In this document: positions 15,433-46,007 of the stretch, piece after piece
How positions within the stretch are numbered: position 1 is the first letter of the stretch
Layout: every line of letters begins with the position of its first letter
Assembly (NCBI GenBank): GCA_010093605.1
Contig: MU004184.1
Coordinates: forward strand, 312,179 to 360,966
Reading direction: 5' to 3'
DNA length: 48,788 bases
Origin: Lophium mytilinum
Taxonomy: Eukaryota
The notes under the pieces: model-generated
Databases searched by the model: none
What the model saw: only the letters and a program-made list of their open reading frames with translations
Told to the model about the DNA's origin: nothing
Program-made: the position numbers and the translations under genes

Positions 15433-15500
15433 CTCACGTGCTGGCTCGCCTGATGTGGCTGGTGCGGGCGTTTGTTTTGGTCTATATATTTGCTATAAAT
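15433..15500 (+). promoter_or_regulatory. U6 (copy A) upstream promoter: CTCACGTG E-box and TATA box
   Basis: CACGTG at 15435-15440 (-78) and TATATATT at 15483-15490 (-30); both are positionally conserved upstream of the second U6 copy. Confidence 0.7.
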
Positions 15501-15512
15501 TCAACGCACTTC

Positions 15513-15615
15513 GCCTTCGGGCATTTGGTCAATTTGAAACAACACAGAGAAGATTAGCATGGCCCCTGCACTAAGGATGACACGCTTTATCAAAGAGTAG
15601 CTTCAAAATTTTTTT
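15513..15615 (+). ncRNA. U6: U6 spliceosomal snRNA, intronless copy
   Basis: GCC-UUCG-GGC 5' hairpin, CATTTGGTCAATTTGAAAC (A box), ACAGAGAAGATTAGCATGGCCCCTGCACTAAGGATGACACGC core (ACAGAGA box, AGC triad, ISL), T7 Pol III terminator at 15609-15615. Confidence 0.98.
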
Positions 15616-15639
15616 AGCTTTTGTTTTGCGCTTAGATGA

Positions 15640-15649
15640 GGTTCGAGCC
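15640..15649 (+). promoter_or_regulatory. Downstream (extragenic) Pol III B box of U6 copy A
   Basis: GGTTCGAGCC ~25 nt after the terminator; the same motif is at the same place after copy B. Downstream B boxes are established for budding-yeast SNR6. Confidence 0.8.
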
Positions 15650-18262
15650 CCGCTGTGGTGACATAATATCTTTTTGCCGATTCCTTTATTTTTTAGGAAC
15701 AGAAGTTTCTTCATGCGCTTAATACATCCTATGTAGAGCACAGTGTATGGTAAAGGATGTATCTAATGCAATAGCCCCTGGATATCAGATAGCTATGGTG
15801 CTTGATGCCGCCGGGCTCTGGTTTTGATGACATCCTCGAATCTAGGAACAGCACGGCATCACTTATAGCCAATGTAGTCGTGGAGAGTCTTCAAACAAGG
15901 CGCTTTGCAATGCTCGTACTGTTTAATAAAATTGAGGCTTGTGGTAGGTCGGCCAAGACGTGTTCAACTAATGTGAGAAGATCGCTTCGGGTGCTGCGTG
16001 CTGTGTATGCTTCTTCGGTCTCAGAGCAGAATTCTACAAGAGGGTCGCGATGCAGGACCGACGTAGTTTGTGAGAGCTCCGGTGTCTTCGTAGCGCCAGG
16101 CGGTAGTCATCTAAATCGCGAGGTTAAGGCTTTTTAGGTAACCACCTATCAGTATTTGCGGCGGTCGCAAGGGGAAGGCAGCCTACCACTCATGGCTGCT
16201 GTATACAGATTCAACAGGCTCCCGTCTCAGTGTGATGTGGTCTATCCATGGTCGAAGACGCTCGAAACCCCAAGAAAGGACCTTACGCGTTTCGCTGCTC
16301 CTATTTGTCATCGCTGATGATGACGCTAAGGGCGCTGTGCTACTCAGTGATAGCGACATCATGGTGGACGTAGGATGTGAGGAGTGACTTTCGATGTTCT
16401 TCGCCACTGCAAGCTGTATGTTCGGGATATCGCAGCAAAGAGCCTTGACCACACCAAGTATTCCCCTAAGCCGTGGCGAAAGTTCCTCACCGACAGAGAC
16501 TCATGCAATGTTTCCCTTTGTTAGCAAGCAGATGGTGGCCTCATAATACAAGTATTTCTTCGCGAAAAGTGTGTCTCTGTTCTTTTTATTGTGGCAACCG
16601 TTGCGCAAGTGGCCTCTGAAAGAACCTGAATACGGAATGCACGCTGAAAGAATAGAAGTTTTATTCCAACTACTTAAGAAAGAGTCTATACCCTAATGTA
16701 GCATACATTGAGTCAGTCGTCTGTAACTCCGGCCTCACGGCGCACCGTTGACCCATTCGAACTCTGAAATCGCTGTGTCCCTCGAGATTGTACACACCTT
16801 GGCGGTAGGGGTTGAAAGGGCATTGGGCTTTTCAAGCGAGTAATTGCTATGGCGAGCAATACATCCTGAAGTTTCGAGGCTTTTGGAGAGCTAGGAGTGA
16901 GTCTTGGCTTATTTTGTAACTATCCTATAACTTTCTTCCGTGTACCACGACCTCTCATTCAATGACTTCGAAATTTGTTCGTTTCCCATCGAAATGATTA
17001 CATACGCAGGGAAGCAGCGGCGGCACTCCACAAGCGGAAGAGAAAGGCCTCGAGACGTAGATGGTGGAATACGGCGGTACCCAAACCGAATTGTCCAGAA
17101 GTGTGTCCAAAAATTCAGTTCCTTGATTGAGGTCCACCAAAAACGGAGCGAGAAGGCGGGTTTTGGAGGCTCAAGACTCGCAAAAGGACTACGCTTCTCC
17201 TATTCCGATATCCTATCAACCATCTCAATCTCCCACTTCAACCAATGTACGTTGTCGAGGGGACCCGGAATAGAGGCGACGAGAAGCAAAAGGTATTCCT
17301 AGAGCATCGAGATCAGTTCCTCCATGAACTTTAAACTTTCGAGAGTCAATCCTCCGATGCGTAAGATGTGGGAGCTGGCTTCTTTTACCAGCTCCCATCA
17401 CTGACTCCGGCATTCCAGGGAGTGGCGAAGAGTGTCTTTCCGCCACCGAGTCTAATCCAAAGTACTGCTCTAGATGTAGAAACGCGGTGTTCGGCTTGCT
17501 TCTGTTCAATCCTGGCCCCATGCCGAACCTTCAAGCCACTGATAGACAAGAAAGATCTATTGGGACCGGGTGACACTCGCCATGGGAGCACCTTATGGAG
17601 GGAGAACCGGGTGGGAGGACTCGGGCTATAGAGATGAGAGCTTCTAGAAGGAGAAGTGCTCACCTCGACGAACGCAGGCTTCATCAATTTTGATTTAATA
17701 TGGATGTCCTTGGAGGAAGCCGGTGCTAACGATTCTGGGCAGTAAATTTCAGAACGATCAAGAGCGAGGCTAGGTCAGTTGCCAGCGACCCGGCGCGGAG
17801 GTGAGGGTCGAGAGAAAGCAACTCGGGATGCTATACCGCGGAGCGAAGAGAACACCAGAGCGAAAGGGCTGAAAGGAGGTAGCATGCGAAAAAGAGAGCA
17901 GAGAGCAAGATGTTCGCATTTTTAGAACGCCCACGGAGGCCTGATAATCCCAGACAGCACCCTCTCCGACCCACTAGGGCTAGCGCGTCATTCCGCCAAG
18001 AAGCTTTTACGCCGAGGAGTAGCCGCTCGAGCGAAGCCGCCCACAGAAGTCGGAGCTCGCTCTCCGTCACTTCGTCAACACCACACCTCTGTCACTACCA
18101 CATGATTGTCCTGATTGATTCACTATTCCTACGCTGTCACACCTCCTGTGCCTCAACGCCAGCAATCAAGAGGCGGAGGAGTATCTTGGAAGCGTAGCCA
18201 TATCGCTTTCAGAGCTGTCTACCGTTGAGGCAGTTCTCAACTTGCAAGATCTAGAGGCTACG

Positions 18263-18864
18263 GTGAGTGTTCGTCTTGTACTCCCCCACTCCCCCTTTGC
18301 AATGATGAGAATAAGCCCAATGGCCTAAAGGTAGCCGTGGCAGGTTCTCGTGATGGCAGTCTTCCAGCCTCAAAGTACTTCCCTTCTTTCCACCCCTCTC
18401 ACCGCCTTCCCTTCCCTTGCCCTTCACACTGCGCGACTGGGATGACTGCTGGATCTTGTAACTCTGCTCGGTCGCCGATGCAAGGCCCCCAATAATCTCC
18501 TCGAATCTTCCTAAATCAACAACGTTTGAAAACTTGCTTTACCTCTCACTCATCAAGAAGTACACTTGCCTAATAAAGTGACTGTTGTAGGATAACCGTC
18601 AGGCGTAAGTGCCCGTCTTATACTCCTCTACTCCCCTACTGCAATGACGAGAACGATTATTTGCCTAAGGGCGGTCATGACGAATTCTCGTGATGGCAGT
18701 CTCTCAGTCTCAGACCGGAATTATTGAACGATCCTGTGACCTGCGCGGCTGTCGAAGCCGGATCAACAATAGCTAATCTTCTTTCTGAATCAACAACATT
18801 TCGAAACTTGCTTTACCCTCCACACATCAAAAAACACACTTGGCTAATCAAGCGAGTGGTGCAG
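18263..18864 (+). repeat. Two homologous long spliceosomal introns (18263-18590, 328 nt; 18605-18864, 260 nt) flanking a 14-nt microexon
   Basis: GTGAGT...CCTAAT...TAG and GTAAGT...GCTAAT...CAG. 5' and 3' parts align (e.g. TTCTCGTGATGGCAGTCT and AAACTTGCTTTACC in both). Splicing both keeps a frame open: ...LQDLEAT-DNRQA-TSFNEASHDFW... Confidence 0.7.
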
Positions 18865-19404
18865 GACTAGCTTCAACGAAGCTTCACACGATTTCTGGCC
18901 CGCAAGTGAATACTCTTGCTCGATTTGGCCCCTCGACTCGAGCGATGAGACACGGAGAGCCCTGTGACTGACTCTCGTGGAGGTGGCCCGTCCTGTCTCT
19001 CCGGAGGCTGGGTGCGTCACCCAACCTCATGACCTGCTCGGTCGGCCACTGTCAACAGAAATGTTCTTCTGATACCTCTCTTTCCTCGCTTGGGACTAGC
19101 ATCTCGTTCGTCCTAGTTCTCATAGCTAGGTGTTATCGATCTTGCAGGGACACACATTGCCCGTTGAAGCGCTCGTTTGCCCGAGAATCATCGGTAGGTC
19201 ACACTTTCCCGTCCTATTTCCCTATTCCTTGTTCTTACGACAAATCAAGCCGCACAGTACCCTTGGTCTGAGGTGGGTCGGACTTAGTCTCGTGAAGGCG
19301 GCCCGGTTCTGCCTGACTCGTGGGGTTGCTACGCTGCCCCGATCTTGTGAACTGTTCTTCAAATCTTCTAAAGATAGATACGCTAACGTTTATGGGACTG
19401 CTAG

Positions 19405-19864
19405 GATCCAATATACCGTCTCGACGACGAACAAGAAGGTCTATACCGAGGAGGAGGGGCGTTTCTTGCTCATGCAGAGGGCCCAACATAACACTGAGAG
19501 GGATGGCATCTGTGAAAAGATCCGGGACGATATTCGCGAGTCGCCACTGCTCTGCCTCGACTGGTTCTCCCTCAGCCGTACGCCCCAGGAAACCAGCCGA
19601 TGATGCATGGCCCTCCTCATTACTATGATCAAGGAATGTGAGCCTCGAAGACCAACGGGCGCAGCCCTGGAAAGAGCGAGGTGAATCGTCGGCGGAAGAA
19701 GAACCTGTTGGAGATCATCACAAGAAGCACTACTTCTCCCACTCCCGTCACCAAGGATATGAGCCTGGGCGAAGACCAACGGTAGGGGTGCTGGGAAGGG
19801 CAAGCGCGCAATCGAAGAGGATGAATCGGAGGAGGAAGAGGATGCTCTAGTCAAAAAAGGCTAA
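19405..19864 (+). pseudogene. isw2: C-terminal (SLIDE domain) fragment of an ISWI chromatin-remodelling ATPase
   Basis: IQYTVSTTNKKVYTEEEGRFLL...EKIRDDIRESPLLCLDWFSLSRTPQETSR*CMALLITMIKECE resembles the fungal Isw2 SLIDE motif (YxVSTTNKKVYTEEEDRFLL...IRESPLFRFDWFFLSRTP). Premature TGA at 19601; acidic tail GKRAIEEDESEEEEDA; no ATPase domain upstream. Confidence 0.85.
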
Positions 19865-21128
19865 GCAAGGGGACCCGCTTCTGAAAGGCAAAATCGGGTT
19901 CATTCCATATCGGAACGCTTCCTTCGGCGAGTGCCGTCAAAGAAGAACCTCAATCGACGCAGGCCGGCCTTTGCGCAGAAATAAACCGTCTCGCGGCATC
20001 GTGGGACTAGAAGAAGTATCTAGACGGTAGGGAGACGCCCAGACACCCAGACCCCCAGACACGCATATGGGAATACTGTCGTCAAACGCTTTTGAGAGTA
20101 CTTCAACGATCGAGGTGGATCAAACCAATCAACCCAACACTACAACCTGCTCTGTGACGGCAAGACGCCTGCTCTCATGCCTTGGCTTTCCCCACCGTTG
20201 TAGCTTTCTCCACATCCGCCTTGTCCATCGCCGTCTCCCACATAACCACCAACCAAGCCACATACATCACCACACCCACGCCTCCGATGGCTACCTCTCT
20301 TGAGCGATCTTCGTCAGACTCGATAAGTCTCTGAGCCTCTGGCGCATGCCCGGCGGAAGATGTTCTAAGCAGTCTTCCTGTCCTAGTGTCGTGCGCTTCG
20401 AAACAAACGGTGGTGTTGGCGATAGGGATATGTATAAAGGCAATGATAGGTCGAGTACTGATATGTAAGGGAGGGATTAGTCTCAGGAAGACAAGTGGCC
20501 TCTACTGCATATTCTGTTTCAGCTTAGTGTATCCGCTTGTAGTATAGAGGATGTAGCTCTCATCAATGCACAGGCAGTTTTCTTCTTCATCCACATCAGT
20601 AGACCATGGATTGATGACAACCCATGTCTTTCGTTAGAGGTAGTCGCGCTTAATCTCCCTAAGACTGAGATCAAAGCTATGAGAGCCATGACCTGTCACT
20701 GAGAAGCTGTTCCACAATATCAAGGTGAAAGCGAAGGGAAATGTCTGGCGCGAAAATGCTACTTCGAAGAAAAGGTTGAACGAGCTGAAAGAAACAACCT
20801 CCAAAGGAACAAGGCTAGTCTTGGGAAGGAGATGACTTTGAATGCCTGAACCTTCATGCTACTCTCTAGCCAAATATGCAATGCTACAAAACCTCCGTGT
20901 CTCAAGACTCATATCCCATCCAGTAGTCTCTCTTCACCTATGAACCCAAGCAGCCAGCTCAGTCAATCATGTGGCCATGTGCGAAGATATCCTAGCAGTC
21001 AGCATCGCCAGAACAATGACATCGCTGAATTAATCCACAGTGGGAGCCTCATCAGGCTCACTTAGTTGTGGCTTTAAAAGAGCCAGCTGGCTAGCGGCAG
21101 TCGCGTCCCGCAAACCCTCAACACAACT

Positions 21129-21611
21129 GTGACGCGACCTCAACCTTTCCACCTCTCAAGCCACTCCGCCTACATTACATCTCGCTTCTCCATCAAGCCA
21201 TCCCCAGTACGAGGGTGCCTTGTCCGACCCTCACCATCATTCCGTTCCACCTTCACTATTGCGCGGAACACTCTCTCCCGAATCGACTCCATCATCTTCG
21301 ACGCCGTCACTCCCGTTGCTGGCATATGCAAGCTATATGAGGCTAACATCCCCGAAATGCTCCAGCGCTAGCTGCCGGCCGGAGAAATAAATGTCTTCAT
21401 CCCCTCCGAACTCGCCCTCGAACAGCTCGAGCCTGCCCATGAGCATTACCACCAGCTCACCGCAGACTCCAGGCGCTCAAAATCGTACGATTGCCCAAAT
21501 ATGGTCCCCACCGAGGTCGGATACAAGAAGTTCACGAATCGAAACACACGCATGGAGACAGGTATCTTCAGTGCGAGCAGTCGGGATGCGGGTGCCATAC
21601 ACGCACGCTGA
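21129..21611 (+). pseudogene. Hypothetical gene broken by a RIP-type TAG
   Basis: Frame continues protein-like across TAG 21369-21371 (EMLQR*LPAGEINVFIPSELALEQLEPAHEHYHQL). Confidence 0.3.
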
Positions 21612-22359
21612 CCTCGCCGGGGCTCCCTTCCAGCTCAAGCATATCAAGCTCGATTCCACAGTTGCCACGAATCTTATTCTATGTTGAAAAGAGTTGGGAA
21701 GGTAGCGAGCTACAATGCGCAATACACAACGTCTCCAACTACAGCCAACGTTGGCAGATGTAATAAAAAGCGCTAGATCAATGCTTTACCTCCACGCAGA
21801 AGTAAGGAACCCGTATGGGAAGTCTTCCTGCTGTGGGTTGGGGGCGGTACCACCCAGATTAGTCAGAGGGACAAGTTCCATCTCCCTGTGATCTGAGGCG
21901 TGTGACACATTTTTCTTTGACCACTACTTGATTCTGAGGTATCGAATTGAGGTCTCGCACATGAGGACTTTCTCGAAGCTTGTCACAACCTTTAGATTTT
22001 GAAATTAGCCGATGTCAAAGCCATTGGAGCCCGAGTTAGCCCCTTGTCTAGTCAACTCATCAGCTGTATATAAAGTAGCAACCCCTCCATTTTCAATCCC
22101 TGTAAGGAAACTTTGCGCATATTCTAAGGGATTTGAAGCCCATCACAATTTACAGATACTGTGCATCAATTCCACCCAGCATCCAAGCCGTTGTCACGCA
22201 GGCATAAAGACTGTCCTCAATCCAAGCCCTAAGAACGCTAGGTGCCTCCCATTGAAGTCCCTCGATGCACTATCGAAACCCCAATGGGAGATGGAGCCCC
22301 GCGCATTGGCACCGTCTAATCATACTTCAGTGTACCCTGGACTCTGCATCAATCATAAC

Positions 22360-22881
22360 CTATCTCCAAAACACTGCCGCAACTCCAGCGAGAACCGTAC
22401 CCAAAATCACGGCCAGGTATTCATAGCGCATCCCCCGATCCATTCCCACCACGCGCGCCTCTCCGTTCCACCAGGTGGGCAGAAGACCTTGCTGTTTGTC
22501 CTTTCCCGCCTCCCAAGCCTTCAGTATCTCATTCACCGCCACCATCAGCTCATCGTCCTCTTGTGGCATGCCGCGGGACATCGGCTGCAGGAACTGGATA
22601 GAGGCCGCATCGCCGGTGTCATTGAGCATCGTAAGCGTGCAGTACGGGCAGGTGCTGTGGCCCAGATCCATCCAGCGTTGTAGGCAAAAGAGGCCCAGGT
22701 CGTGGCCACATTGGGGCCGCACGAGGATGTCGAGATCGAGGTCGAGATGGTCGGCATTGTAGGCGTTCTTAGCGAGCTCGGCGGCGAGGAGGATGCGGTC
22801 GGTCGGGTGGAGGGCGAATGGGTTCTTGCAGATGGGGCAGCTAGACGTAGCGTCTACTGTTGTGAATAGGTGTTCGGACAT
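22360..22881 (-). CDS. RING-finger protein (173 aa) with C-terminal transmembrane anchor; putative E3 ubiquitin ligase
   Basis: CPIC...CGHDLGLFCLQRW...TCPYC RING pattern; hydrophobic tail YEYLAVILGTVLAGVAAVFWR*; intact single-exon ORF. Confidence 0.8.
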   Translation of the reverse strand: MSEHLFTTVDATSSCPICKNPFALHPTDRILLAAELAKNAYNADHLDLDLDILVRPQCGHDLGLFCLQRWMDLGHSTCPYCTLTMLNDTGDAASIQFLQPMSRGMPQEDDELMVAVNEILKAWEAGKDKQQGLLPTWWNGEARVVGMDRGMRYEYLAVILGTVLAGVAAVFWR

Positions 22882-23225
22882 TTTGGTGGTGGTTGAATTA
22901 GGACGGGCGGGATTGGGATGGGTGACGAGGAGGAGTTGGTCCGGTGATGATTTTATGAGGGCGAGTGGTCTTTGAGTAGCAAAGGGGTGCGAGACAGCTT
23001 ACACTTTCACTCAAGGACAAGCCAGTTTCACTACGCCGTGGCCCCAAGGGCGTACACAATGTTGCCGCATTGTGAATGGGAACAGTCAGGAGGCAGGCGC
23101 TTTGCAGGGGGCTAGCTGATACCTCAATAATATCTGTACGAATCACAGTATACGAGTACAGGGTTAGTTTTGGAAACATAGACAATGCAATTGTCTTCGT
23201 CCGTGGTCGTTTTGGTCGGAAAACG

Positions 23226-23556
23226 CTAATTCGCTTCAAGTTTGCGCACGGCTTCGACGCTTTCTATCTTTGCTAGCATCTCGCACAGCCCTCCGCTGCT
23301 GAGAGCATCGTGCATGACTTTGACGCTATCTTCTCCTCTGGCGTCGCGCTTCCCTGCATTGTGATGAAGCTTTAATTCGCTCTTAGGTTGCGCACAGCTT
23401 CCACGCTATCGTGTATGCTAGCGTCGGGCATAATCCTCCCCGCTGATTGCGTGGCGAACGGTTTTGACGCTATCGTTTATGCTAGCGTCGGACACAATCC
23501 TCCTGTCTATTTGGGTCGCCCATGGCCTCGACGCTTTCCCTCTCTGCTAGCGTCGT
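23226..23556. repeat. Degenerate tandem array of five ~64-80 bp units, each with a GACGCT...AGCGTC inverted core
   Basis: Cores at 23256, 23322, 23402, 23466 and 23530 (spacing 66, 80, 64, 64). A higher-order ~146 bp period is visible (TAATTCGCT...TTGCGCAC at ~23227 and ~23373). Confidence 0.75.
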
Positions 23557-24777
23557 ATTTCTGCATGCTGGCACTTGTGTTCATTGTCAACATTGTTGCC
23601 TTGAACGCCCGACTTTGGTGAACATGCGGATCTGCATTCTATCTTTTCATGCCACCGCTTTCCCTGTATCCTACACCTCGTTTCTGCTTTGCGTTCTACC
23701 TGCATTCCTCTTGCATCTCATGCCCTACGTCACCGTGGGCATGTTGCGTGACTAACTGCATCTTTATCTCCCGCTCAAGGGGTGATGTTGCATTCGACTG
23801 ATGAATGGAATTGTATTTGATCATTCGTGACGTAGAGAATACCGTGGTTCATTGGCAGAGCTGACGGTAGTGGAAGAACGCAAGGCCTAGAGATTATTCT
23901 GAGGTGCTTCACGATCCATGCGACCTTATCGTCCCACAAGCAGAACTAGGAAACAATTTCAAGTGGCGGCGAAGGCTTTGACAAACACTGGATCGAGGAT
24001 AAATTGTAAGCGACTAAGACATGGCTTTAAATGAGCTCAATATGGATGTCTTGACAAGCCGGGCCACACCGTCAGAGTTCCCTAACTATTTGGTCTCTTT
24101 GTACATCCCGTACCATCACCCCTAGCGTATCCGTGGCAATCAAAACCTCCGTACCTATAGAATGTGTCGCATGTATAGCCAAGAAGCCGCTGGTGCAAGA
24201 TGAATGTTCAAAATTAAGAACGCCGAGCTCAAGAAAGAAGAGTAGCCTCCTGCGAAGCGTCCAGACTCCCGGCAGATAAGCGTGAGGCTAAGTCCTCGCT
24301 ATGACTACAGTGATGTATCGAAACATAGTAGAAAGTGTGGCAGTACATCTTACCTTTCATTGCCATAGTGAAGAGCGTAGATATCACTGTAGCACGCAAG
24401 TAAGATGACCGGTAGCACTCGTGTGAGGGTATTCTGGGGCTGAAAGTTCGAACAACATTTCTAGAGTTCCGTACTAGCAATTGGGTGCAAGTATAGGCCT
24501 ACCAGCTTGGCGAAAGGGGTGCACATGCAGGGAGACAGGAAGCTTCCCGGACTAGTCACGTGCGAAGTGGGAAGACAGCGCTGGCCGCGTCACTTCACCC
24601 TTCCCTTCCTGTTCCACGACTTTCCGCCAGATTCCACGCCGCCGCCTGTGCCCCTCACCTGCAACCCTCAAGTAAACTGCTCCGTTAAACGGTCTAGCGC
24701 TGATGAGTAAGCGCCAAGACTCTCAAATATTCTGCAGTATATCAACCCGCCCGCCCCCCGACCTTCCTTCCTTTCTC

Positions 24778-25024
24778 AGCTCTCTTGTAAGTTTCCTCCC
24801 CTCTCCCCTCCTTCCAATGTCCATCATCGCTAACAATCTTTGCAGTGCCTTTTGGCTTAGATCAAGTGTAGTATCGGTTCTTCTCAGTTTAATCGCTGGG
24901 ACAGCCCCTACGGGGGTTCCTTCTGATTATCCCATTTTTGGAAACTGTTCCTGGGCCGCTGGGCTTGCCTATGTCCGGGGACACAGTGTCGCTCGTATTG
25001 CACTGCCTCGGGCCGACGCGAACA
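24778..25024 (+). ncRNA. U2: U2 spliceosomal snRNA interrupted by a 59-nt spliceosomal intron (24787-24845); ends approximate
   Basis: Spliced 5' end AGCTCTCTT|TGCCTTTTGGCTTAGATCAAGTGTAGTATC; branch-recognition GTAGTA 24868-24873; stem IIa TCTCAG-TTTAATCG-CTGGGA; stem IIb AGCCCC-TACG-GGGGTT; Sm site ATTTTTG 24934-24940; stem III; loop IV ATTGCAC. Intron GTAAGT...GCTAAC(24829)...CAG. Confidence 0.96.
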
Positions 25025-26199
25025 TTCTTTGTTCAACATCTTTTTCATTGATCTGCTCAGCTTGTCTGGGTCGTCGAAGAAGAAGCATTCGTCCTTTGGT
25101 TCGCCTTTGGCTATGAAGTTCGGAATAATTGCTGGTGTTTGGTGAGCTAGTCAGCGTTTGTTGTTGTTGCTTCCCCTCGCTGGTGCTCCCCGCCATCTCT
25201 TGTTGCTGATCCTGATCGCGACAGACCTTTCTCTGAGCTGCTTCAACATGCTGTGATGCTTCATCGTCATTGCCGTGAGTGCCTTAAGTATTGTGGTACT
25301 GCTGAATGGCGTCCGCACCGATCAAGCTCGCCGCCTCTTCTTCAGCGTCAACAACGTTGACGCGTCTCAACGCGATACGTCACAGCTCACGCGCCGCAGC
25401 TCCGTATTCCGCCTCACCAGAGTTCGAGTCCCTGGTAAGGCACTCAGCCATTCAGCACCATGCAACGGTAATGCGGTCACTCCCCATGACTTTGGCCACG
25501 ACAAGGCTAACACTAGACTTTACCCTCGTAGACCCAAAGCTCTAACATCCTGCGCCGCCGGAAGCTAGAGCTGGAAGTTGAAAACCTCTCCGGACGTTGT
25601 CAGTCCACCAACGACCCAGCACGACGGGAAGCAGTGCGACCGCCTTGGGGCCTTCCCCAGTCGATATGTTGAAGCCCTCCTTTTAAACACTCTGATCAAT
25701 CTCGAGGCCACCGATACTCTTCTCTGCATCCGTATCATCTTTGCCCTCATTCATCCACCCAAGGTGCCGCTGAAGACCTTGCGAAATGCCCTCCTACCGG
25801 GCTTCTCCGCTCCGATGCCAGGTTCGGAGCCGAACCTGTCCAATCGGAGGTCAAAATTCTAGACCCCATCCTCCTACCCTAGAAATTCGAGCATCGTACC
25901 TATCGCCTGGCCTTCTTTCCCGACAGCGACTCCACCTTGAACGCGCGACCGCGCAGATGGCGCGTAGGACCGCCAAAAGAAGAAAAATCTGCGCCCTCCA
26001 AGAGCGAAGAGGCCCACACCATATAGAATGTGTTTGAGGTGGAGCAGCACCTCACCTGTTAGATGAAGGAAGCTCCAGGTTAGTAGCTAATTTTCATTTT
26101 CTCATCCTTTTGCCTCCCGATCGCTCCCACGACCATTCGGTTGCGCGCTTTGGGCTATATCTAACATGGGTATTCGGTGAACGCAGCGATATGAACGTC

Positions 26200-26785
26200 G
26201 AGGAGAGTGAGATGCGGAGTGGCATCTACTGACATGAATAGCTCACTCGACACCCACGGTACCAAAGGCGTAGCCCTCGCCCCCCCTCCTCTAGCGCGCC
26301 CTCTTCCAGCACGACCGGTCGTCCATTTCCCATTCAAACAAGCCTCGAAGCAGTCGCTCATGCTCATCCCATGATTCCACCACGATCCTCCGAGGCGAGC
26401 GAGCCACACATCTAGATCACTCGAACCCAGTCCATCCAAGTGGCGAGAAAGAAACCATCGCGTTAATGGGAGCGATGACTTCACCAAGGAGTCGAGAAGC
26501 CCACCGACGCCGTCATGCCGATCTACCTTTCCTCGGGACATTGAGGATCAGGCTGAAACATATATGAATATCGGACTTGTGAGGCGCCGCCTCGATCTGA
26601 AGACACAGTGGCCGGCTGACTTTGACAGGCGAGGGGGTACTTCCAAAAGGACACGCTGGAGGAATCATACAATAAGTGTGGTGGATAAAAATCGTCCATG
26701 GGTCCCCGATGTTGCGCGAAGAGCCCTGGGAATCTTCATATTTTGGCCACGGCAACACCGCTTGAGGGTAAACTTTCTGTATTGA
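26200..26785 (+). pseudogene. Hypothetical gene remnant
   Basis: Long Ser/Pro/Arg-rich frame with a single internal TGA (~26372) running into ORF 26564-26785; no recognisable domain. Confidence 0.2.
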
Positions 26786-29279
26786 GATGATGGGATCCGC
26801 AGCAGAGCTCTCAATAACGAAAGACGTGTCTACAGATCCCCTACATCTACCTGCCTCGGATGCCGACGGGTAAGCAGTAAGATGGTGGCTTACGGTGTAA
26901 GCCAGGATTCAAGACGATAGGCCAGGCAATCCGGATGCAGCAGTCTACTATAGGAGGTCAAAGAAGCAGATAAGCACACAATTTCCTTAAGCGCGAACTT
27001 AATTGGATGCAACCACATAATTAATTTCTCTTTCTATCCTGCCCGAAGATCGAAAACTCTTTTGATGCTCATAACTGAATAGCCCAGCCAGTGACAAAAC
27101 TACCCGACACGAACGATGACAGCTCAAATCTATTGGGTGCTTACCGTCCGCAGACCCATCTATCTTGATCAGAACCTCTCTCCGAGACGCAAGACCTCGG
27201 CCGCTGTAGCAGGGCCATGAAGATAGGCTCGCCCTATTCCCCCAAAGAACGATATTTCCAGGATGGAGCCTCATCAGAGGAAACTGCTAGCGAATCAAAG
27301 GCACCGGTATAAGGATTCTATGCAGAACTCCCTGTAGGAGTCAGCAGTAGACTTGGGCATGCCCCGATCGGCAGTCCAGTCAAATTCTTTGTGCCTCATG
27401 GCTTTTAAATCGAGGACTAGTCATGTTCTTTTTATTACAGCGTCCACTCAAAGATATTATCCGATCCCTGGTGCGCGTCGCCCGACGGAGGCCCTCCGGC
27501 GCCGACGAGCCTCCGAGATGGATCAATTGAGTACATATCTCTCATCGGCCGGCAGCAAGCACTCCGAGGCGAGTGAGGCGAACGCACAGGATGGGAGACG
27601 GATACATTTTCTCATCGCTTTACCAATCTAGCACGCTTGATGTGAAGAAAGACTATCGGTATGCCCAATGTGAAAGATAGACTTTGCCCATCGGGGATGC
27701 AACTTGCCAGATGTCTTGCACTAGACCCATCAGCAGTCCTTTCCTCGATGTCTTCGTTGCATTCTCACAGCGGTCCCTGGCTATACCATCCTACCAAGCG
27801 ATAAAATGGATGCTGGTATAGATTGGGTTCAACAAGGCTTCAGTCCGGCTGTCCTGATGAGGCTCTCTGAATACAATTCATGATCTGATGATCACAAAAG
27901 AGCGATACGCTCTTCTTTACTTTCATTTCAGTGGGTTCAGGTGAAGTCCACTGACATCTTATAGGCTAGCCACGGTCTCACTACTGTTCGGTTCGAGCCA
28001 GTAAGCTTGCATTCCTGAAGCCATTCCCAGAACTGATGTCGTCTGCCAGGATACCCTCGCTCTGGGTAGTGGTCGCGGCCTCTGTCGTTGCAAACTTTAA
28101 GCACACCGCTTTCTTGGTCACGGAGACCTGCCTTCCCATCTGCGCCATGTCCGGGATGTAGAAAGCTCGCACTCCCAACCTGTCCCCGAAATTAATGTTG
28201 TCAGCTCACTGCCGTGGCATGACTGCGGCCACTGATTTTGCGGTCCTACAGCAAATCGAGTCTCAGTGCTTGGAAACAGTCGACGCCGTCGAGCGCTGGG
28301 CGAGGCGAAGAGCTTGCTAGATCGCATGGGAGTGATAGGTTTTCCAAGCCGAGACAGCCATTTCCCATGCCATGCGCGAGAGGAATAACAACGATTGACG
28401 AAGGTGGACGAACACGATGAATACGGCGATATACTAGACGGACCATTAGAGCAGTCATCTTCAGAATCTGATGAGTTAGGCAATTGAGATCGCATTGACA
28501 TTAAATGTGAGATCTGGATCATGGATGTTTCGGGATATCTCTAGCTCTGAATACCTCGTTTTCCAACCTTATGTATTTGATCGGCATCATGATTTAGCAG
28601 TGACCATGTCTGGAATGACCCGTTACAACATCCTTCTTTCGCGTTTCCTATTAGGCCCAAGTATGATCTCCCCTGAGTCTCGCCATTCCCTGTCGACATT
28701 CTCACTTTTTCTCTAGATAGTACTGACGGCGCTGCCGTTAGCGCGGGCGAAAACGGCGGTAAAGATGTATTGTATAGACGGAACCCTAATAGAGAGCGGA
28801 AGGTTCTCGCGCATACGCGGGTGAGTGGAAGACAGCATCGCGTGTGATGCGGTTGGCATGTTCAAGGATTTCGTAGGGAGAGCCGAAAGGTCGTTGCTGG
28901 GCAGCGAAGCGTAGATAGCTTTCGCGAGAGGAATCTTTCCAATTATTAGACCGTCAGTGGAATACAAGTATAGCGTGTGGCCGGAAATGTGACTGTGTGA
29001 AAAATGAGGGGGACGACCTGTTCAAGGGAGGGCGTCGAAGTAAAGGAAACAGACTCGCGCAGTCATTCAGGGTTTGTCGTGTAGGGTGTGGGAGGGAATC
29101 TTGGAGGTGAACGTGCTGTGCCAGGAGACTGTTGTCTGAAAACCGCTCTCTCTGCTTGCCGTAGCGTTGTTGCCGACGGCGATAAGCTCATACACATTAA
29201 TTGTAGACAACTATTACTACTAGGACATCGTTCCGTACCTTGTTGCCGAAGCTCCGGCGGCGCACGGGACTGTTGTGGT

Positions 29280-29334
29280 CTCACGTGGCACATATACCGT
29301 GCACTGACCATGTCCACGTCTGGGTGTATATATT
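29280..29334 (+). promoter_or_regulatory. U6 (copy B) upstream promoter: CTCACGTG E-box and TATA box
   Basis: CACGTG 29282-29287 (-75); TATATATT 29327-29334 (-30). Confidence 0.7.
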
Positions 29335-29356
29335 TGGTTTAAATTCAACACACTTC

Positions 29357-29509
29357 GCCTTCGGGCATTTGGTCAATTTGAAACAACACAGAGAAGGTAT
29401 GTATCACCCCCCCTAACACTCAGCTTCAAAACTAATATCTTTCAGATTAGCATGGCCCCTGCACTAAGGATGACACGCTTTATCAAAGAGTAGCTTCAAA
29501 AAATTTTTT
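29357..29509 (+). ncRNA. U6: U6 spliceosomal snRNA interrupted by a 49-nt spliceosomal intron (29397-29445)
   Basis: Exons identical to copy A except the 3' A-run (6 vs 4). Intron GTATGT...ACTAAT(29431)...CAG inserted at ACAGAGAAG|ATTAGC. T6 terminator 29504-29509. Confidence 0.98.
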
Positions 29510-29530
29510 GTGTTTTGTTTGGTCAGATGA

Positions 29531-29540
29531 GGTTCGACCC
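29531..29540 (+). promoter_or_regulatory. Downstream Pol III B box of U6 copy B
   Basis: GGTTCGACCC preceded by AGATGA, as in copy A. Confidence 0.8.
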
Positions 29541-32452: not shown

Positions 32453-34393
32453 CTAAAACTTCTCCACCCTCCCCTCCGCCACCGCCACCGGATCCTCCTG
32501 CGTCTCAATCACCACCCTCCCATCCACATTCTTAATCGGCCCCGTAAACCACTTCCTCGCCCAAACCGCCCAACTCCCCAACGCAAAAAACAGGATAATC
32601 CCCACCGCAACCGGCGTATAATTCAGCGTCTGACTACTCACCGGATTCGCCGTCGGCAAACAAAAGATAATACTAATAAAGCAGATCCACAACACCGCCA
32701 CCGCCGCGATCGGCCGGCTCGCCATGCCCAGGTTAAACGGGCCCTTGACGAAATTCCCCGGCCACAGCGCGCCGATCATGATGGGTAGCCCGTAGGAGAT
32801 GTACAAGCCTATTGTTGCGATGGAGGTCGCGGCGGCGAACGCCACGGAAGAGCCGAGCGACGGGATCGCGAGGAGGAAAGAGAGGAACGCCGCCAGCCAC
32901 ACCGTCCGCACAGGCGACTTAAACCGCACATCGACCGCATGAAAAAAATGCGGCAGCCCCCCGTCGCGCGCGAAGCCGAACATCATGCGGGAATTGCTGG
33001 TCATAGAAAACAACCCACAATGCCACACGCACACAATAATAAGCGTCATGAGCACAATCGCGCCGTCGGTGCCGAACACGTCGATGAAGATCTGCAGCAC
33101 CGGCTGCCCGACGGCGGAGTCGACGGTGCTATCGAAGTCCTGGATGCTGAAGAGCAGCGCGAGGAGGTAGAAGAAGCCGAAGACGCCGGAGACGATGATG
33201 GAGGTCAGCACGCCGATCGGGGCGCTCCATTCGGCTTTTTTGGTTTCCTCCGAGAGGTGCGCCGAGGCGTCGAAGCCGGTGATGGTGTATTGCGACATTA
33301 GAACGCCGCAGGCGGCGACGTAGGCCGGGGAGGCGCGCACGCTCCACCCCGGGTCGCCGGTGCCGTCGTAGAATTTTTGGAAGACGAAGGAGGCGGGTTG
33401 GTGGTGCGGGGCTTTGGCGAGCACGGCGATGGCGATGGCGGAGACGCCGAGGGAGTGCAGGATGATGGAGGAGTTGTTGAGGTAGCGGAGCACGCTGACG
33501 CCGAAGGTGTTGACGGTGCCGTGGGAGACGAGCAGCGCGGCGTAGATGCCGATGGTGCGGCCGGCCGTGGGCGTGTAGGTGCCGTTGATGGAGGCCAGGG
33601 TGGAGATCAGGCCTGCGCAGCCGAAGGTGATGCCGGTGGTTACGGCGACTTGGCCGAGCAGGTTGAACCAGCCGGTCATCCAGGACCAGAAGGGGGCTTG
33701 GGATGGGGGTGCGAGGATGGCGGACCAGAAGTAGGGGCCGCCGCTGGTGGGGATGGCGGAGACGATTTCGGCCATGCCGAGCCCGACGAAGATGGTCATG
33801 AAGGTTACGATGATCCAGCCCTAGGGGGTGAGCATGTGGTGGAGATATGACAAAGGTCTGACTTACGACGCTCATGACGGCAGGGCCACCAACTGGGAGT
33901 GTTAGCTAATTATCTAAAACTCGAATTGGGAGGCTTACCGGTTAAGCCATAGGAGAAGAGAGTCGTGATACCCGTGACGACACTCTGGCCTGATTAGCAT
34001 TCCTTTGGAATATCTTGAATGCGCCGTCTCTTTTCCAGTCTGTTCACTCTTACGCTTTCCCCTTCCTTATATCTTTTTCTGCAGTGCATCGAAGGATTTC
34101 TTCCTCCCGACCGCGTTGAATAAACAACAAACCGCCATCTTGATCCCGCATCCACGATCCACCACTCCACATCGCCAGAACCACAACTCTGATCTTCGAG
34201 GTACGCGAAAAAGATAATGAGGAAGGAAAACACTCACAATAATCGAAAACGACACCCCAAAATTATGCAACGCGCTCCAGCTCCGATTCAACTCCTGCTT
34301 ATACCCCAGCTCCGCCAACTTATCCTCATCATGCAGCGCAACATCCGCCGCCGTCACACTATTCGTTCTGCGCCTAGCAACCGGGATAGACAT
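32453..34393 (-). CDS. APC-superfamily amino acid/GABA permease (UGA4/GabA-like, ACT family), ~531 aa, 4 exons
   Basis: Exons 34238-34393, 33939-33984, 33867-33892 and 32453-33820 joined by canonical introns (253, 46, 46 nt) give an open frame. Motifs LGYKQELNRSWS..NFGVSFSIIS, GGPAV, AEIVSAIPTSGGPYFW, GFDASAHLSEET, SRMMFGFARDG; many hydrophobic helices. Confidence 0.95.
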
Positions 34394-37704: not shown

Positions 37705-37835
37705 TGTTGGAAGTTATCAATCTGACGCTCCTGGTCACGTGACTTCCAGAACATGCCGGTTACATATAGACTTCTCCTATAGTATATATAGGTAAGTCCC
37801 CTTAAGTTAAATATAATTAAGAATTTACTTTAATA
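37705..37835 (+). repeat. 5' LTR (~131 bp) of a Ty1/copia retrotransposon
   Basis: Begins TGTTGG, ends TAATA (RIP form of CAACA), contains a TATA-like run near 37785 and is directly followed by GGTTATAAGCC (RIP form of the copia-type PBS GGTTATGAGCC). Confidence 0.7.
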
Positions 37836-40739
37836 GGTTATAAGCCTAGGTACTTTATACCTTTAACCTCTATCTTTACTATATTTAATAGTTATACTAA
37901 TAACTCTCTTATAATATTTACCTAATATAATACTAAAGAGAAGCTAAAAGCTAAAAATTCTACTAAGTATACCTTTTTTTCTATATTCTCCTCTATATAA
38001 AATTTCTAGATAATTTTACTACTATTATATAGAATATAATTTTATATAATAAGCTTAAAAGAGGCTATATATTATTTTATCTATTTCTACTACTTTTTAT
38101 CTTTTTATCTTCTTCTATACTAAAAATACTATCTAATTTATATATTTAACTACTAAATATAAGTATAGCCTAAAAGAGAGCTTTAAGTATAATATAGAAT
38201 ATATATATTATAACTAAATAGAATTACTACTATACTGCTAGCATACTTCTAAATAGTAAGAATAAAACTAAGAAGAAGAAGTTAAAGAATATATATAACT
38301 TAGCTAGTATATATTAAAATAGTAAGGACTTATATAGTAAGAGCTAAAAGAGTAAATAAAGCTCTAAAAAATCTACTTTAGTTATACTAGTTGCACTAGT
38401 TAATAATAATAACTTAGATAATAATAATAACTTAGATAATTTAGATAAAGTAGATAAATATAACTCTAATATATCTATACCGCCGTCTATAGATAATAAA
38501 GATAACTTATTATACCTGCCTAGTAATACTAATATAGACCCTTAGCTATATACTAAGAAAATAACTAGTAAGTATTAGAAATAGAAAGTATTTAAGCTAA
38601 GCCCGCTATAGTAACTAAGTCTATGCTAGATAAATCTACCCTAGGTAGATCTACTCTAGTAGAGTCTACTATTATTTCCGCGCTGTTAGAATACTCTAAT
38701 TAATAAAAACTATAATAGTAGTAACCTAGTTCTATAGGCCTAGGTATAAATTATAGAGAGGAATATTAATATACTACTATAAGAATATACTTAATACTAT
38801 TAATAATAAAATAAGTACTTTTATTTATATCTAAATAGCCCCCTCTACTCTTACCTATAATAATACTTACTAATAATATTAAATAACTTTAACTTAGTCT
38901 TACTAGAGAAGAAATAGAACGCTACTATAAAGCTTTTTAAAGATTAACTAAAACTAAAAGGCCTAAATAACTTTACTAACTAGAATCTCTACTTATAGCT
39001 TTATATAGAAATATATAAGTTTACTACTATTCTTAATAGTACTAAGCCTTAACTAACTACTAGAAATATTACTATTAATATATAGAAGTCTAAAAACTAC
39101 CTTATTTAAATACTAATTCTTAACTATATTAAATAGAAACCGCTCTAACTAATCTATAGAGTAAAGACAGCGTTTAAAATACTATAACGCCTATTACGCT
39201 ACTATACTATTAGAAACGCAACTAAGATAAATAACCTATAGAAAAAGTATCTAGCTATTACCTATAATACTTTAAAATCTATAGATAACTTCTACTAATA
39301 ACTTAAGGTTACTAATACTTAACTTACTACTCTTAACTCTACCTATAAAATGCCTAAATAGTTCTAGAACTTATACTTTCTTAATAGCCTATCTAATGCC
39401 TTTATATTATAGAGAGATAACTTCTTTAGTAATAATAAAGATATTACTAAAGTTAGTTTTAAAATAGATTTTAATAATATTAGAAGTAAAGTAATTACCT
39501 AGAAAGTATAAATATAAGGTAGTAATATATATATTAACTTTATCTAAAATAGTAAGTAAGATAGAAAATTAAAGATAATAGATTAACTTAAGATATAACT
39601 AAAGAAAAAGAATACTTAGTTCTAGAAGTATATTAATACTATTAAACTCTACCTAACTTATAATATAAGTAAAGGGGGGTATAGAAGAGAAAAATATATT
39701 ACTCTAGCCTACTAACTCTATAGATAGAGTATATAATATAGAGGCTTATAAGGTCTAGCTATCCGCGGCTAAGCTAGCTTATAATTAGAAGAATAAGGCT
39801 ATAGATAAAAAGAAAATAGCTTTAAGCGCTAGTAACTAAATAATATAGAAAGTATAAACTTTATAACTATTTTTAAAACTCTACTTCTATTATATAGCTC
39901 TAATATATTATTATATATTATATAAACTATACTAATATCTTTATAGAAATAGAATATAAATAATAAAATATACTCTATACCTAATATAACTATATTAATC
40001 TCTATTCTATAAGATACTATAGTTACTACGCCTTTTCTCCCCTCTAATAATAATATAACCTAGGTATAGTATATTAATAATATACTAGAACTAGTCTTCT
40101 TTATAAAACTAACTATACTATATAGCTAATTCTAATAGTTTATAGACTTAGGCGCCTTAAAATACTATATAGGTAATATTAAATTATTTAAGAGTCTATA
40201 ACTTCTACTATATTCTATAATAGTAATAGGTATAGAAGGAAGATATATTTATAGATATAGTAGAATAGTTAATCTATAAGTAGATATTTATAGAGTAAAG
40301 AAGACTCTAATACTTATAAACATGCTATATATTTTAGGTATTAATTTTAGCCTTATTTCTATTAACTAACTCTATAGTTTAGGCGTCTACTCTCTTATTA
40401 AGAAAGGTATCTTTAAAATTAGATAGAATAATACTAATAAAATTATTATAGTTACTAAAAGCCTAGAACTAAATAACTTATATATACTATATACTATTAA
40501 TTCTATAGAGTCTATCTAGGCTATATAGGTTTTCTATATAGCTATTAAAGAAAATACCGCCTCTATAGATCTATAGCACTATTAGATAGAATATATAAGT
40601 TTAGTGTAGATACTATAACTATAGAAAGTTATAAAAGGTATTAACTTAAAGTCTAAAGGCCTTAAATACTATAAAATCTATTCTTTTACTAAAATATAAT
40701 AATAGAACTTTACTACTAAAGCTACCTATATATTAGTAC
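37705..40739 (+). mobile_element. RIP-degraded Ty1/copia LTR retrotransposon, truncated at the start of integrase
   Basis: Degraded zinc knuckle near 39650; protease VDLGALKYYIG (from DSGAS.H) at 40145; LINMLYILGINFSLISIN*L (from NVLYVPG...LISVSQL) near 40320; DL*HY*IEY (from LWHRRMGH) at 40568 plus a degraded CxxC, i.e. gag-PR-pre-integrase order. Confidence 0.8.
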
Positions 40740-45637: not shown

Positions 45638-46007
45638 NNNNNNNNNNNNNNNNNNNNNNNNNNNNNNNNNNNNNNNNNNNNNNNNNNNNNNNNNNNNNNN
45701 NNNNNNNNNNNNNNNNNNNNNNNNNNNNNNNNNNNNNNNNNNNNNNNNNNNNNNNNNNNNNNNNNNNNNNNNNNNNNNNNNNNNNNNNNNNNNNNNNNNN
45801 NNNNNNNNNNNNNNNNNNNNNNNNNNNNNNNNNNNNNNNNNNNNNNNNNNNNNNNNNNNNNNNNNNNNNNNNNNNNNNNNNNNNNNNNNNNNNNNNNNNN
45901 NNNNNNNNNNNNNNNNNNNNNNNNNNNNNNNNNNNNNNNNNNNNNNNNNNNNNNNNNNNNNNNNNNNNNNNNNNNNNNNNNNNNNNNNNNNNNNNNNNNN
46001 NNNNNNN
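45638..46007. other. Assembly gap (370 N)
   Basis: Run of N. Confidence 1.

What the first reader, a model, noticed from the sequence alone, without database searches (positions are those of the whole stretch)
29357..29540. Same U6 gene present with and without a catalytic-core intron
Seen: exons are identical, and the flanks are shared (TATA at -30, AAATTCAACRCACTTC, downstream AGATGAGGTTCGA B box), so this is a DNA-level duplication rather than a retrocopy. The 49-nt intron is a precise presence/absence difference between the ACAGAGA box and the AGC triad. Established: such positions underlie the reverse-splicing model of U6 intron gain. Inference: a snapshot of exact intron gain or cDNA-mediated loss. 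The short homology, broken further by the intron, may have let the duplicate escape RIP.
Basis: partly seen in the sequence, partly recalled or inferred. Interest (0 to 1): 0.8.

Follow-up and report, generated by a model that had tools for sequence, protein, structure and literature searches.

The report
Two U6 genes, one with intron
A filamentous ascomycete carries two copies of the spliceosomal U6 RNA gene 14 kb apart, identical except that one is interrupted by a typical 49-base intron next to the catalytic core, which is a tidy new example of something already known in fungi.

Summary
Rfam finds two U6 genes on the + strand, at 15513-15612 and 29357-29505, with a U2 gene between them. Removing 29397-29445 (49 nt: GTATGT, ACTAAT branch site, CAG) makes copy B identical to copy A over 96 of 96 nt.

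- The shared flanks are short islands: -35..-1 with a TATA at -30, and about 70 nt after the terminator with a B-box-like GGTTCGA.
- Beyond -40 and +60 the flanks are no more alike than shuffles (z -1.1 and -0.7).
- The shared islands have themselves diverged (5 of 35 upstream), so these are old, selected paralogues and not a fresh snapshot.
- RIP escape needs no help from the intron. The shared unit is about 213 or 262 bp, under the ~400 bp limit.

In 120 metagenomic fungal U6 genes, 27 carry introns at other sites and none at this one. That favours a lineage-specific gain, but no sister genome could be examined.

Fungal U6 introns, and paralogues of which only some carry them, are already described (Canzler et al. 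2016, seen only through a review). Verdict: new member of a known kind, modest interest.

The parts
15483..15489 (+). TATA box of U6-A, 30 nt before the Rfam start
   Evidence: Read. TATAWA starts at -30 in 21 of 85 evaluable metagenomic fungal U6 genes.
15496..15512 (+). Proximal upstream block TAAATTCAACGCACTTC of U6-A
   Evidence: this motif occurs only at the two U6 genes in the window.
15513..15615 (+). U6-A: intronless U6 snRNA gene, a 96-nt body followed by a T7 terminator (15609-15615)
   Evidence: Rfam RF00026, 86.5 bits. T-run position.
15635..15649 (+). B-box-like GATGAGGTTCGAGCC downstream of U6-A
24836..25027 (+). U2 snRNA gene between the two U6 genes, with no intron
   Evidence: Rfam RF00004, 123.3 bits, model positions 1-192 matched contiguously.
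29327..29333 (+). TATA box of U6-B at -30
29340..29356 (+). Proximal upstream block TAAATTCAACACACTTC of U6-B
29357..29396 (+). U6-B exon 1 (40 nt), ending ...ACAGAGAAG
29397..29445 (+). 49-nt spliceosomal-type intron. It starts GTATGT, has an ACTAAT branch motif whose A lies 10 nt from the 3' CAG, has no run of 4 or more T, and is 41% GC.
29446..29509 (+). U6-B exon 2 (AUUAGC... to CAAAA, then two extra A) and the T6 terminator (29504-29509)
29526..29540 (+). B-box-like GATGAGGTTCGACCC downstream of U6-B

Best explanation
These are two functional paralogous U6 snRNA genes of an ascomycete. Each has its own SNR6-like RNA polymerase III promoter: a TATA at -30, a conserved proximal block, a T-run terminator and a B-box-like element about 20 nt after it. 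Copy B carries a bona fide spliceosomal (mRNA-type) intron 2 nt after the ACAGAGA box and 3 nt before the AGC triad. Its precursor must be spliced by the spliceosome, as in Schizosaccharomyces pombe, to give a U6 RNA identical to that of copy A except for two extra A before the U tail. The copies are old paralogues kept alike by selection on the RNA and on the promoter elements. The intron was most likely acquired in the lineage of copy B by the classical route proposed for U6 introns: an excised intron reverse-spliced into U6 RNA sitting in the catalytic centre, reverse transcription, then recombination of the cDNA into one gene copy. Shown: gene identity, exact indel, intron signals, extent of flank similarity. 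Inferred: transcription, splicing, polarity (gain) and the reverse-splicing route.
For: Both copies pass the Rfam U6 gathering score. Removing the insert restores 96 of 96 identical nt. The insert has GTATGT, a CTRAY branch motif 10 nt from CAG, and no Pol III terminator. Its length and signals match the 27 introns found in 120 metagenomic fungal U6 genes (26 are 48-60 nt; one 115-nt call is probably a misparse). Selection: at the upstream divergence of 5 in 35, zero changes in 96 nt has probability 3.7e-7. Promoter motifs are kept at both copies and occur nowhere else in the window, while the wider flanks are unrelated. The elements are of the expected kind: TATAWA at -30 in 21 of 85 other fungal U6 genes, and GRTTCRA within 100 nt after the terminator in 13 of 102 against 0 of 105 in an upstream control. 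Polarity: 118 of 120 metagenomic U6 genes are uninterrupted at this junction, 0 have an intron there, and 2 have one 2 nt or 5 nt further on (L089, L071). Precedent (review PMC5855946, section 14 read): the S. pombe U6 intron is removed by the spliceosome, and fungal U6 introns cluster near the catalytic core, are often species-specific, and occur in only some paralogues.
Against: No whole genome is held, so other U6 copies and a donor intron could not be sought. No sister species was available. The identical exons could reflect gene conversion instead of selection. A vs B identity at -35..-1 (30 of 35) is far above the best other fungus (22 of 35), which also fits a small, not very old, DNA copy of a ~210-bp unit. 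Nothing in the two copies themselves separates gain from cDNA-mediated loss.
Confidence: 0.65

Rival explanations
1. The intron is older than the duplication. Both copies once had it, and copy A lost it exactly by recombination with a spliced U6 cDNA (the classical reverse-transcriptase-mediated intron loss).
For: The loss would be exact and would leave promoter flanks untouched, as seen. U6 is abundant, so cDNA is plausible. The review notes that some fungal U6 introns are shared by related species.
Against: It needs two events (gain, then loss) where one suffices. 0 of 120 other fungal U6 genes have an intron at this site. No sister genome was examined, so this rests on parsimony alone.
Confidence: 0.25
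2. The 49 nt entered copy B at the DNA level, as an introner-like element or as filler DNA at a repaired break, and not through reverse splicing of U6 RNA.
For: There is 2-nt AG microhomology at the junctions. The mechanism cannot be read from a single insertion.
Against: No related sequence was found in the rest of the window or in the 118 loci (best hit 12 nt, E 0.27). At 49 nt it is an ordinary short fungal intron, and introner-like elements are described as longer than regular introns and present in hundreds of copies (abstract of PMC3609843 in the listing). The site lies in the part of U6 that sits in the catalytic centre, where U6 introns are said to concentrate.
Confidence: 0.1
3. Copy B is a dead or never-spliced gene copy, and the intron-like insert is an inactivating insertion.
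For: There is no expression data. Copy A alone could supply U6.
Against: Exons are 96 of 96 identical while the adjacent promoter-proximal DNA differs at 5 of 35 positions (P = 3.7e-7 if neutral). TATA, proximal block, terminator and B-box-like motif are all kept. The insert carries a complete set of splice signals and no T4 run.
Confidence: 0.05
4. Assembly artefact: one of the two loci does not exist as assembled.
For: The only DNA runs that hold the region (X1 and X2, 0.97 and 0.96 of sampled words) come from one sample and study and may be the source data, so there is no independent confirmation.
Against: The two loci have unrelated unique flanks. A misassembly would not create a 49-nt insert with full splice signals at a single junction.
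Confidence: 0.02

Closest known systems
mRNA-type introns in fungal U6 snRNA genes (S. pombe, Tani & Ohshima 1989; survey of 145 fungal genomes, Canzler, Stadler & Hertel 2016). Known to me only through the review PMC5855946 (passages and section 14 read); the primary papers are not held.
   Same: A short intron with canonical 5' splice site, branch site and 3' splice site sits in a Pol III-transcribed U6 gene, near the ACAGAGA box and AGC triad. The genome has several U6 copies of which only some carry an intron. The reverse-splicing origin is the accepted hypothesis.
   Different: The exact site (after the G two nt past ACAGAGA) was not seen in my 120 metagenomic U6 genes; the nearest are 2 and 5 nt downstream (L089, L071). 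I could not check whether it is in the 2016 catalogue. In S. pombe the B block lies inside the intron (review passage), whereas here a B-box-like motif lies downstream of the terminator in both copies.
S. cerevisiae SNR6-type Pol III promoter (TATA at -30, intragenic A block, downstream B block), as described in review PMC5855946
   Same: Both copies have a TATA box at -30, a T-run terminator, and a GGTTCGA B-box-like motif downstream of the terminator.
   Different: The B-box-like motif lies about 20 nt after the T-run. An A block was not examined. A 17-nt block at -17..-1 is kept between the two copies (16 of 17) but is not conserved in other fungi (best 22 of 35 over -35..-1). Binding of TFIIIC or TFIIIB is untested.
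[quoted passage not shown]
   Same: A filamentous ascomycete with more than one U6 gene and intron-bearing U6.
   Different: I saw no sequences or intron positions of those genes, so sites cannot be compared.

Membership tests
U6 spliceosomal snRNA (Rfam RF00026) | Score at or above the curated gathering score (44 bits) over the full model | tested here: met
   86.5 bits (15513-15612) and 55.0 bits (29357-29505), both matching model positions 1-105.
U6 spliceosomal snRNA (Rfam RF00026) | ACAGAGA box, AGC triad five nt later, 3' U tract | tested here: met
   All are read directly. The base before ACAGAGA is C in both copies, against T in 115 of 115 other fungal U6 genes.
Spliceosomal (mRNA-type) intron in a U6 gene | GT...AG borders with a fungal 5' splice-site hexamer and a CTRAY branch motif close to the 3' end | tested here: met
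   GTATGT; ACTAAT with the branch A 10 nt from CAG; 49 nt.
Spliceosomal (mRNA-type) intron in a U6 gene | Removal restores an uninterrupted conserved U6 sequence | tested here: met
   96 of 96 nt identical to the intronless copy.
Spliceosomal (mRNA-type) intron in a U6 gene | The precursor is transcribed and the intron is excised in vivo | not testable with these tools
SNR6-like Pol III promoter | TATA box about 30 nt upstream and a B block downstream of the terminator | tested here: met
   The motifs are present at both copies and nowhere else in the window. This is a motif match only.
SNR6-like Pol III promoter | Intragenic A block; binding by TFIIIC and TFIIIB | not tested
   No scan for an A block was made. 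Binding needs experiments.
Processed retrocopy of U6 | Similarity confined to the transcript, with no shared upstream promoter DNA | tested here: not met
   -35..-1 is 30 of 35 identical (z 17), and 60 nt past the Rfam end scores z 10.
Recent segmental duplication | Flanks alignable well beyond the gene | tested here: not met
   -1000..-41 gives z -1.1 and +61..+1000 gives z -0.7 against 300 shuffles.
Target of repeat-induced point mutation (RIP) | A duplicate over ~400 bp with over ~80% identity (N. crassa values quoted in PMC2621366), bearing C:G to T:A changes | tested here: not met
   The shared unit is about 213 or 262 bp. 1 of 5 upstream differences is a transition. The loci lack RIP-type indices, whereas the block at 38000-48788 has them (TpA/ApT 1.66, (CpA+TpG)/(ApC+GpT) 0.08).
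Introner-like element | Many near-identical intron copies in the genome, longer than regular introns | tested here: inconclusive
   No copy was found in the window or in the 118 loci. The whole genome is not held.

The most novel reading that the evidence does not exclude
The intron is a young, lineage-specific reverse-splicing insertion at a U6 site not yet catalogued, directly after the nonamer that contains the ACAGAGA box. It is preserved next to an unmodified paralogue with the same promoter. This would give a natural before/after pair for the reverse-splicing model. It would also give a system in which part of the U6 supply depends on splicing capacity, the feedback on U6 dosage that the 2018 review raises as a possibility. 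The 10-nt match between the intron and the 3' end of U6 could then bear on the intron's origin or on precursor folding.
Probability: 0.15. Interest if true: 0.55.

Novelty: new member of a known kind. Interest (0 to 1): 0.3.

Why it matters
U6 introns were early evidence that U6 sits at the catalytic centre and that splicing can run backwards. A genome that keeps an intron-bearing and an intronless copy with identical exons and the same promoter type offers two things. First, the 3' tag (A4 vs A6) lets transcripts be assigned to a copy, so one can ask whether a Pol III transcript with a core intron is spliced efficiently and whether it adds to the U6 pool. Second, with sister genomes it could date one insertion or loss exactly. 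Practically, both loci give complete U6 promoter and terminator units for guide-RNA expression in this fungus. It does not change current understanding, because the phenomenon is already described for fungi.

Tried and rejected
- Whole-genome search: no genome is held for this window. Counting U6 copies and searching for a donor intron were therefore limited to the window and the fetched loci, with no hit better than 12 nt (E 0.27).
- Expression: the look-up of sequencing runs listed no RNA holder. It listed X1 and X2, guessed DNA, from one sample and study, and X3, guessed RNA, with 0.04 of the words.
Neither misassembly nor splicing could be checked.
- Earlier notes of this scan: three look-ups gave nothing.
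- Same-site intron pattern: 0 hits in genome contigs and viral contigs. These collections hold prokaryotes and viruses, so this says nothing about fungi.
- Special structure of the precursor: the fold of pre-U6-B is no more stable than shuffles (z +1.0; 177 of 200 shuffles fold at least as well). The same holds for the mature RNA (z 0.18). Rejected as evidence.
- Intron derived from U6 itself: the only similarity is a 10-nt exact match to the last 10 nt of the U6 body (9 of 2000 dinucleotide shuffles reach it). This was noticed post hoc and is kept only as a note. The antisense comparison gave nothing (1498 of 2000).
- Other small RNA genes: ARAGORN found 0 tRNAs. Rfam at E up to 0.1 over 1-38000 found only the same three snRNA genes.
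- Literature: Canzler et al. 2016 (PMC4829304) and Takahashi et al. 1993 (PMC360287) are not held. Whether this species or site is already catalogued, and the exact sites of the Rhodotorula and Rhodosporidium U6 introns, remain unchecked. Searches found no paper on this specific site. Their supplements were not examined.
- Organism: only 'Ascomycota' from the amino-acid permease look-alikes. I did not try to name the species.

Full report
WHAT IS THERE

Rfam (cmscan, gathering thresholds) finds three snRNA genes on the + strand of the window.
- U6 at 15513-15612 (86.5 bits), called copy A here.
- U2 at 24836-25027 (123.3 bits).
- U6 at 29357-29505 (55.0 bits), called copy B here.

A laxer scan of 1-38000 (E up to 0.1) adds nothing, and ARAGORN finds no tRNA.

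In copy B the model is interrupted by 49 unaligned bases after ...ACAGAGAAG and before AUUAGC. A script shows:
- exon 1 = 29357-29396 (40 nt);
- insert = 29397-29445 (49 nt);
- exon 2 starts at 29446;
- with the insert removed, the two genes are identical for 96 of 96 nt.

After those 96 nt, copy A reads seven T, and copy B reads two more A followed by six T. The repeat finder independently reports the two halves at spacings of 13844 and 13893, which differ by 49.

THE INSERT IS AN INTRON BY EVERY SEQUENCE CRITERION

- It starts GTATGT and ends CAG.
- It has an ACTAAT branch motif whose A lies 10 nt from the 3' end.
- It is 41% GC and holds no run of four or more T that could stop RNA polymerase III.
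- Exon 1 ends in AG, as does the insert, so the indel has 2 nt of microhomology. Only one of the three equivalent registers gives GT...AG.

In yeast numbering, which I recall and did not take from a call, the site lies between positions 55 and 56. That is two nt after the ACAGAGA box and three nt before the AGC triad.

THE FLANKS

- TATATAT lies at -30 in both copies.
- A 17-nt block directly upstream occurs only at the two genes (2 matches, 0.22 expected).
- A B-box-like GATGAGGTTCGASCC lies about 20 nt after each terminator and occurs only there (2 matches, 0.08 expected).

But the similarity is an island (local alignment scores against 300 shuffles).

| Region | z-score |
|---|---|
| -40..-1 | 17 |
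| first 60 nt past the Rfam end | 10 |
| -1000..-41 | -1.1 |
| +61..+1000 | -0.7 |

Within the island the copies have diverged. Five of 35 upstream positions differ, four of them by transversion. After the T-run, 54 of 70 aligned positions match, with 20 gap columns.

At the upstream rate, zero changes in 96 exon positions has probability 3.7e-7. So both RNA-coding parts are under selection, or are homogenised by gene conversion. Neither copy looks like a decaying pseudogene, and neither is a plain retrocopy.

The pattern fits two readings, and I cannot tell them apart:
- an old duplication in which only functional elements survive;
- a copy of just a ~210-bp unit that has since diverged.

In favour of the second, A and B are more alike at -35..-1 (30 of 35) than either is to any of 85 other fungal U6 promoters (maximum 22 of 35, median 12 to copy A).

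Either way 'snapshot' overstates it: the event cannot be dated from these two copies.

COMPARISON WITH OTHER FUNGAL U6 GENES

One scan of metagenome contigs with a 21-nt stretch of exon 2 returned 118 loci holding 120 U6 instances. Limits of this sample:
- it is unlabelled and contains duplicates (for example L026 and L078);
- it excludes genes with a change or an intron inside those 21 nt.

A spliced aligner of my own recovers the window's intron correctly. It finds one GT...AG intron in each of 27 of the 120 instances.

| Site (after mature nt) | Introns found |
|---|---|
| 13 | 1 |
| 21-24 | 13 |
| 30 | 1 |
| 42 | 1 (L089) |
| 45 | 1 (L071) |
| 72-77 | 8 |
| 86 | 2 |

Twenty-six of these introns are 48-60 nt long; one 115-nt call (L062) is probably a misparse. 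This is an undercount: by eye, L035 and L082 show a further intron-like 3' end upstream, and L048 an uncalled one downstream.

At the window's site (after nt 40), 0 of 120 have an intron and 118 of 120 are uninterrupted:
- 109 carry the exact 18-mer across the junction;
- 8 carry it with substitutions;
- 1 is cut by the contig end but is contiguous over the junction.

Promoter elements of the same kind occur in a minority of these genes.
- TATAWA starts at -30 in 21 of 85 evaluable genes (36 of 85 anywhere in -45..-1).
- GRTTCRA lies within 100 nt after the terminator in 13 of 102, against 0 of 105 in an upstream control stretch.

This agrees with the review's statement that fungal U6 promoters may or may not have TATA, A and B elements.

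GAIN OR LOSS

The outgroup sample says that the ancestral state at this junction is 'no intron'. The intron therefore arose within the window's lineage. One gain in copy B is more parsimonious than a gain before the duplication followed by an exact loss from copy A.

None of the 120 genes is a close relative, though: all 115 in which the base could be scored have T before ACAGAGA, where both window copies have C. I put gain at roughly two to one over loss and no higher. The two copies by themselves are equally compatible with either, because both routes pass through a cDNA that recombines within the transcribed region.

MECHANISM

The most likely working is as follows.
- Both genes are transcribed by Pol III from TATA plus B-box-type promoters.
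- The copy-B precursor is spliced by the spliceosome. Copy A's product and inherited U6 supply the U6 needed for that.
- The result is a U6 RNA that differs from copy A's only by two A before the U tail.

The S. pombe precedent, a sole U6 gene with an intron removed by the spliceosome, and the reverse-splicing hypothesis come from the review PMC5855946 (section 14 read in full). The same section says, citing Canzler et al. 2016:
- fungal U6 introns are concentrated near the catalytic core;
- they have canonical signals and are otherwise unconserved;
- many are often species-specific;
- experimental proof of expression and splicing is still needed;
- species in which only some U6 paralogues have introns might use splicing to regulate U6 levels.

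The same review gives an average of 2.3 U6 copies per fungal genome over 145 genomes. So the kind of thing seen here is already in print. I could not read the primary paper or its supplement. I therefore do not know whether this species or this exact site is listed.

RIP

- The window does hold a strongly RIP-like block at 38000-48788: GC 0.23, TpA/ApT 1.66, (CpA+TpG)/(ApC+GpT) 0.08.
- The two U6 loci show no such signature.
- The shared unit is about 213 bp (A) or 262 bp (B). That is below the '>400 bp and >~80% identity' quoted for Neurospora (PMC2621366, passages).
- The duplicate would therefore escape RIP regardless of the intron.

WHAT COULD NOT BE DONE

- No genome is held.
- The only runs that hold the region are two DNA data sets from one sample, possibly the source.
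- Hence there is no independent check of the assembly and no evidence on transcription or splicing.
- The same-site pattern found nothing in the prokaryote and virus collections, which is uninformative for fungi.

SURROUNDINGS

Pfam hits in stop-to-stop ORFs:
- a SLIDE domain (ISWI-type remodeller) at 19130-19600, + strand;
- weak RING-finger hits at 22363-22998, - strand, all below the curated cut-offs;
- an amino-acid permease at 32456-33820, - strand, whose Atlas look-alikes are mostly Ascomycota.

VERDICT

This is a real, clean pair of U6 paralogues, one with a catalytic-core intron. The copies are old and selected, not freshly duplicated. The intron was probably gained in this lineage, and its polarity and splicing are untested. 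It is a new member of a known kind, of modest interest.

Noticed in passing
window 15542 and 29386 (the base directly 5' of ACAGAGA in each U6 copy): Both U6 copies read C where 115 of 115 metagenomic fungal U6 genes read T and where the Rfam consensus has U. This is position 1 of the UACAGAGAA nonamer that METTL16 targets for m6A on U6 (PMC8163875, passage). U6 m6A might therefore be altered or lost in this fungus, or other canonical U6 copies may exist elsewhere in the genome.
   Followed up: partly
window 29422-29431 versus 15599-15608 and 29492-29501: Intron nt 26-35 (AGCTTCAAAA) equal the last 10 nt of the U6 body, just before the branch motif. Only 9 of 2000 dinucleotide shuffles of the intron reach this score. 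This was found post hoc, and no structural support came from folding.
   Followed up: partly
window 15513-29509: Three snRNA genes (U6, U2, U6) lie on the same strand within 14 kb, in a stretch with few long ORFs.
   Followed up: no
window ~37750-48788: There is an abrupt switch from about 52% to about 23% GC, with strong RIP-type dinucleotide indices (TpA/ApT 1.66; (CpA+TpG)/(ApC+GpT) 0.08). Short overlapping ORFs on both strands lie at 45550-46052.
   Followed up: partly
L015 and L051 (metagenome loci): Each locus holds two U6-like genes in inverted orientation about 300 bp apart. One is normal. In the other, the 5' third is replaced by a GC-rich hairpin-like sequence.
   Followed up: no
L071 and L089 (metagenome loci): These U6 genes have introns 5 nt and 2 nt downstream of the window's site, that is, inside or next to the AGC triad.
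   Followed up: partly
L073 and L074 (same metagenome contig, about 2.5 kb apart, opposite strands): Two U6 copies both carry a 50-nt intron after mature nt 76. The intron portions displayed are identical and differ at one base. One copy has TATAGAGA in place of the ACAGAGA box.
   Followed up: no
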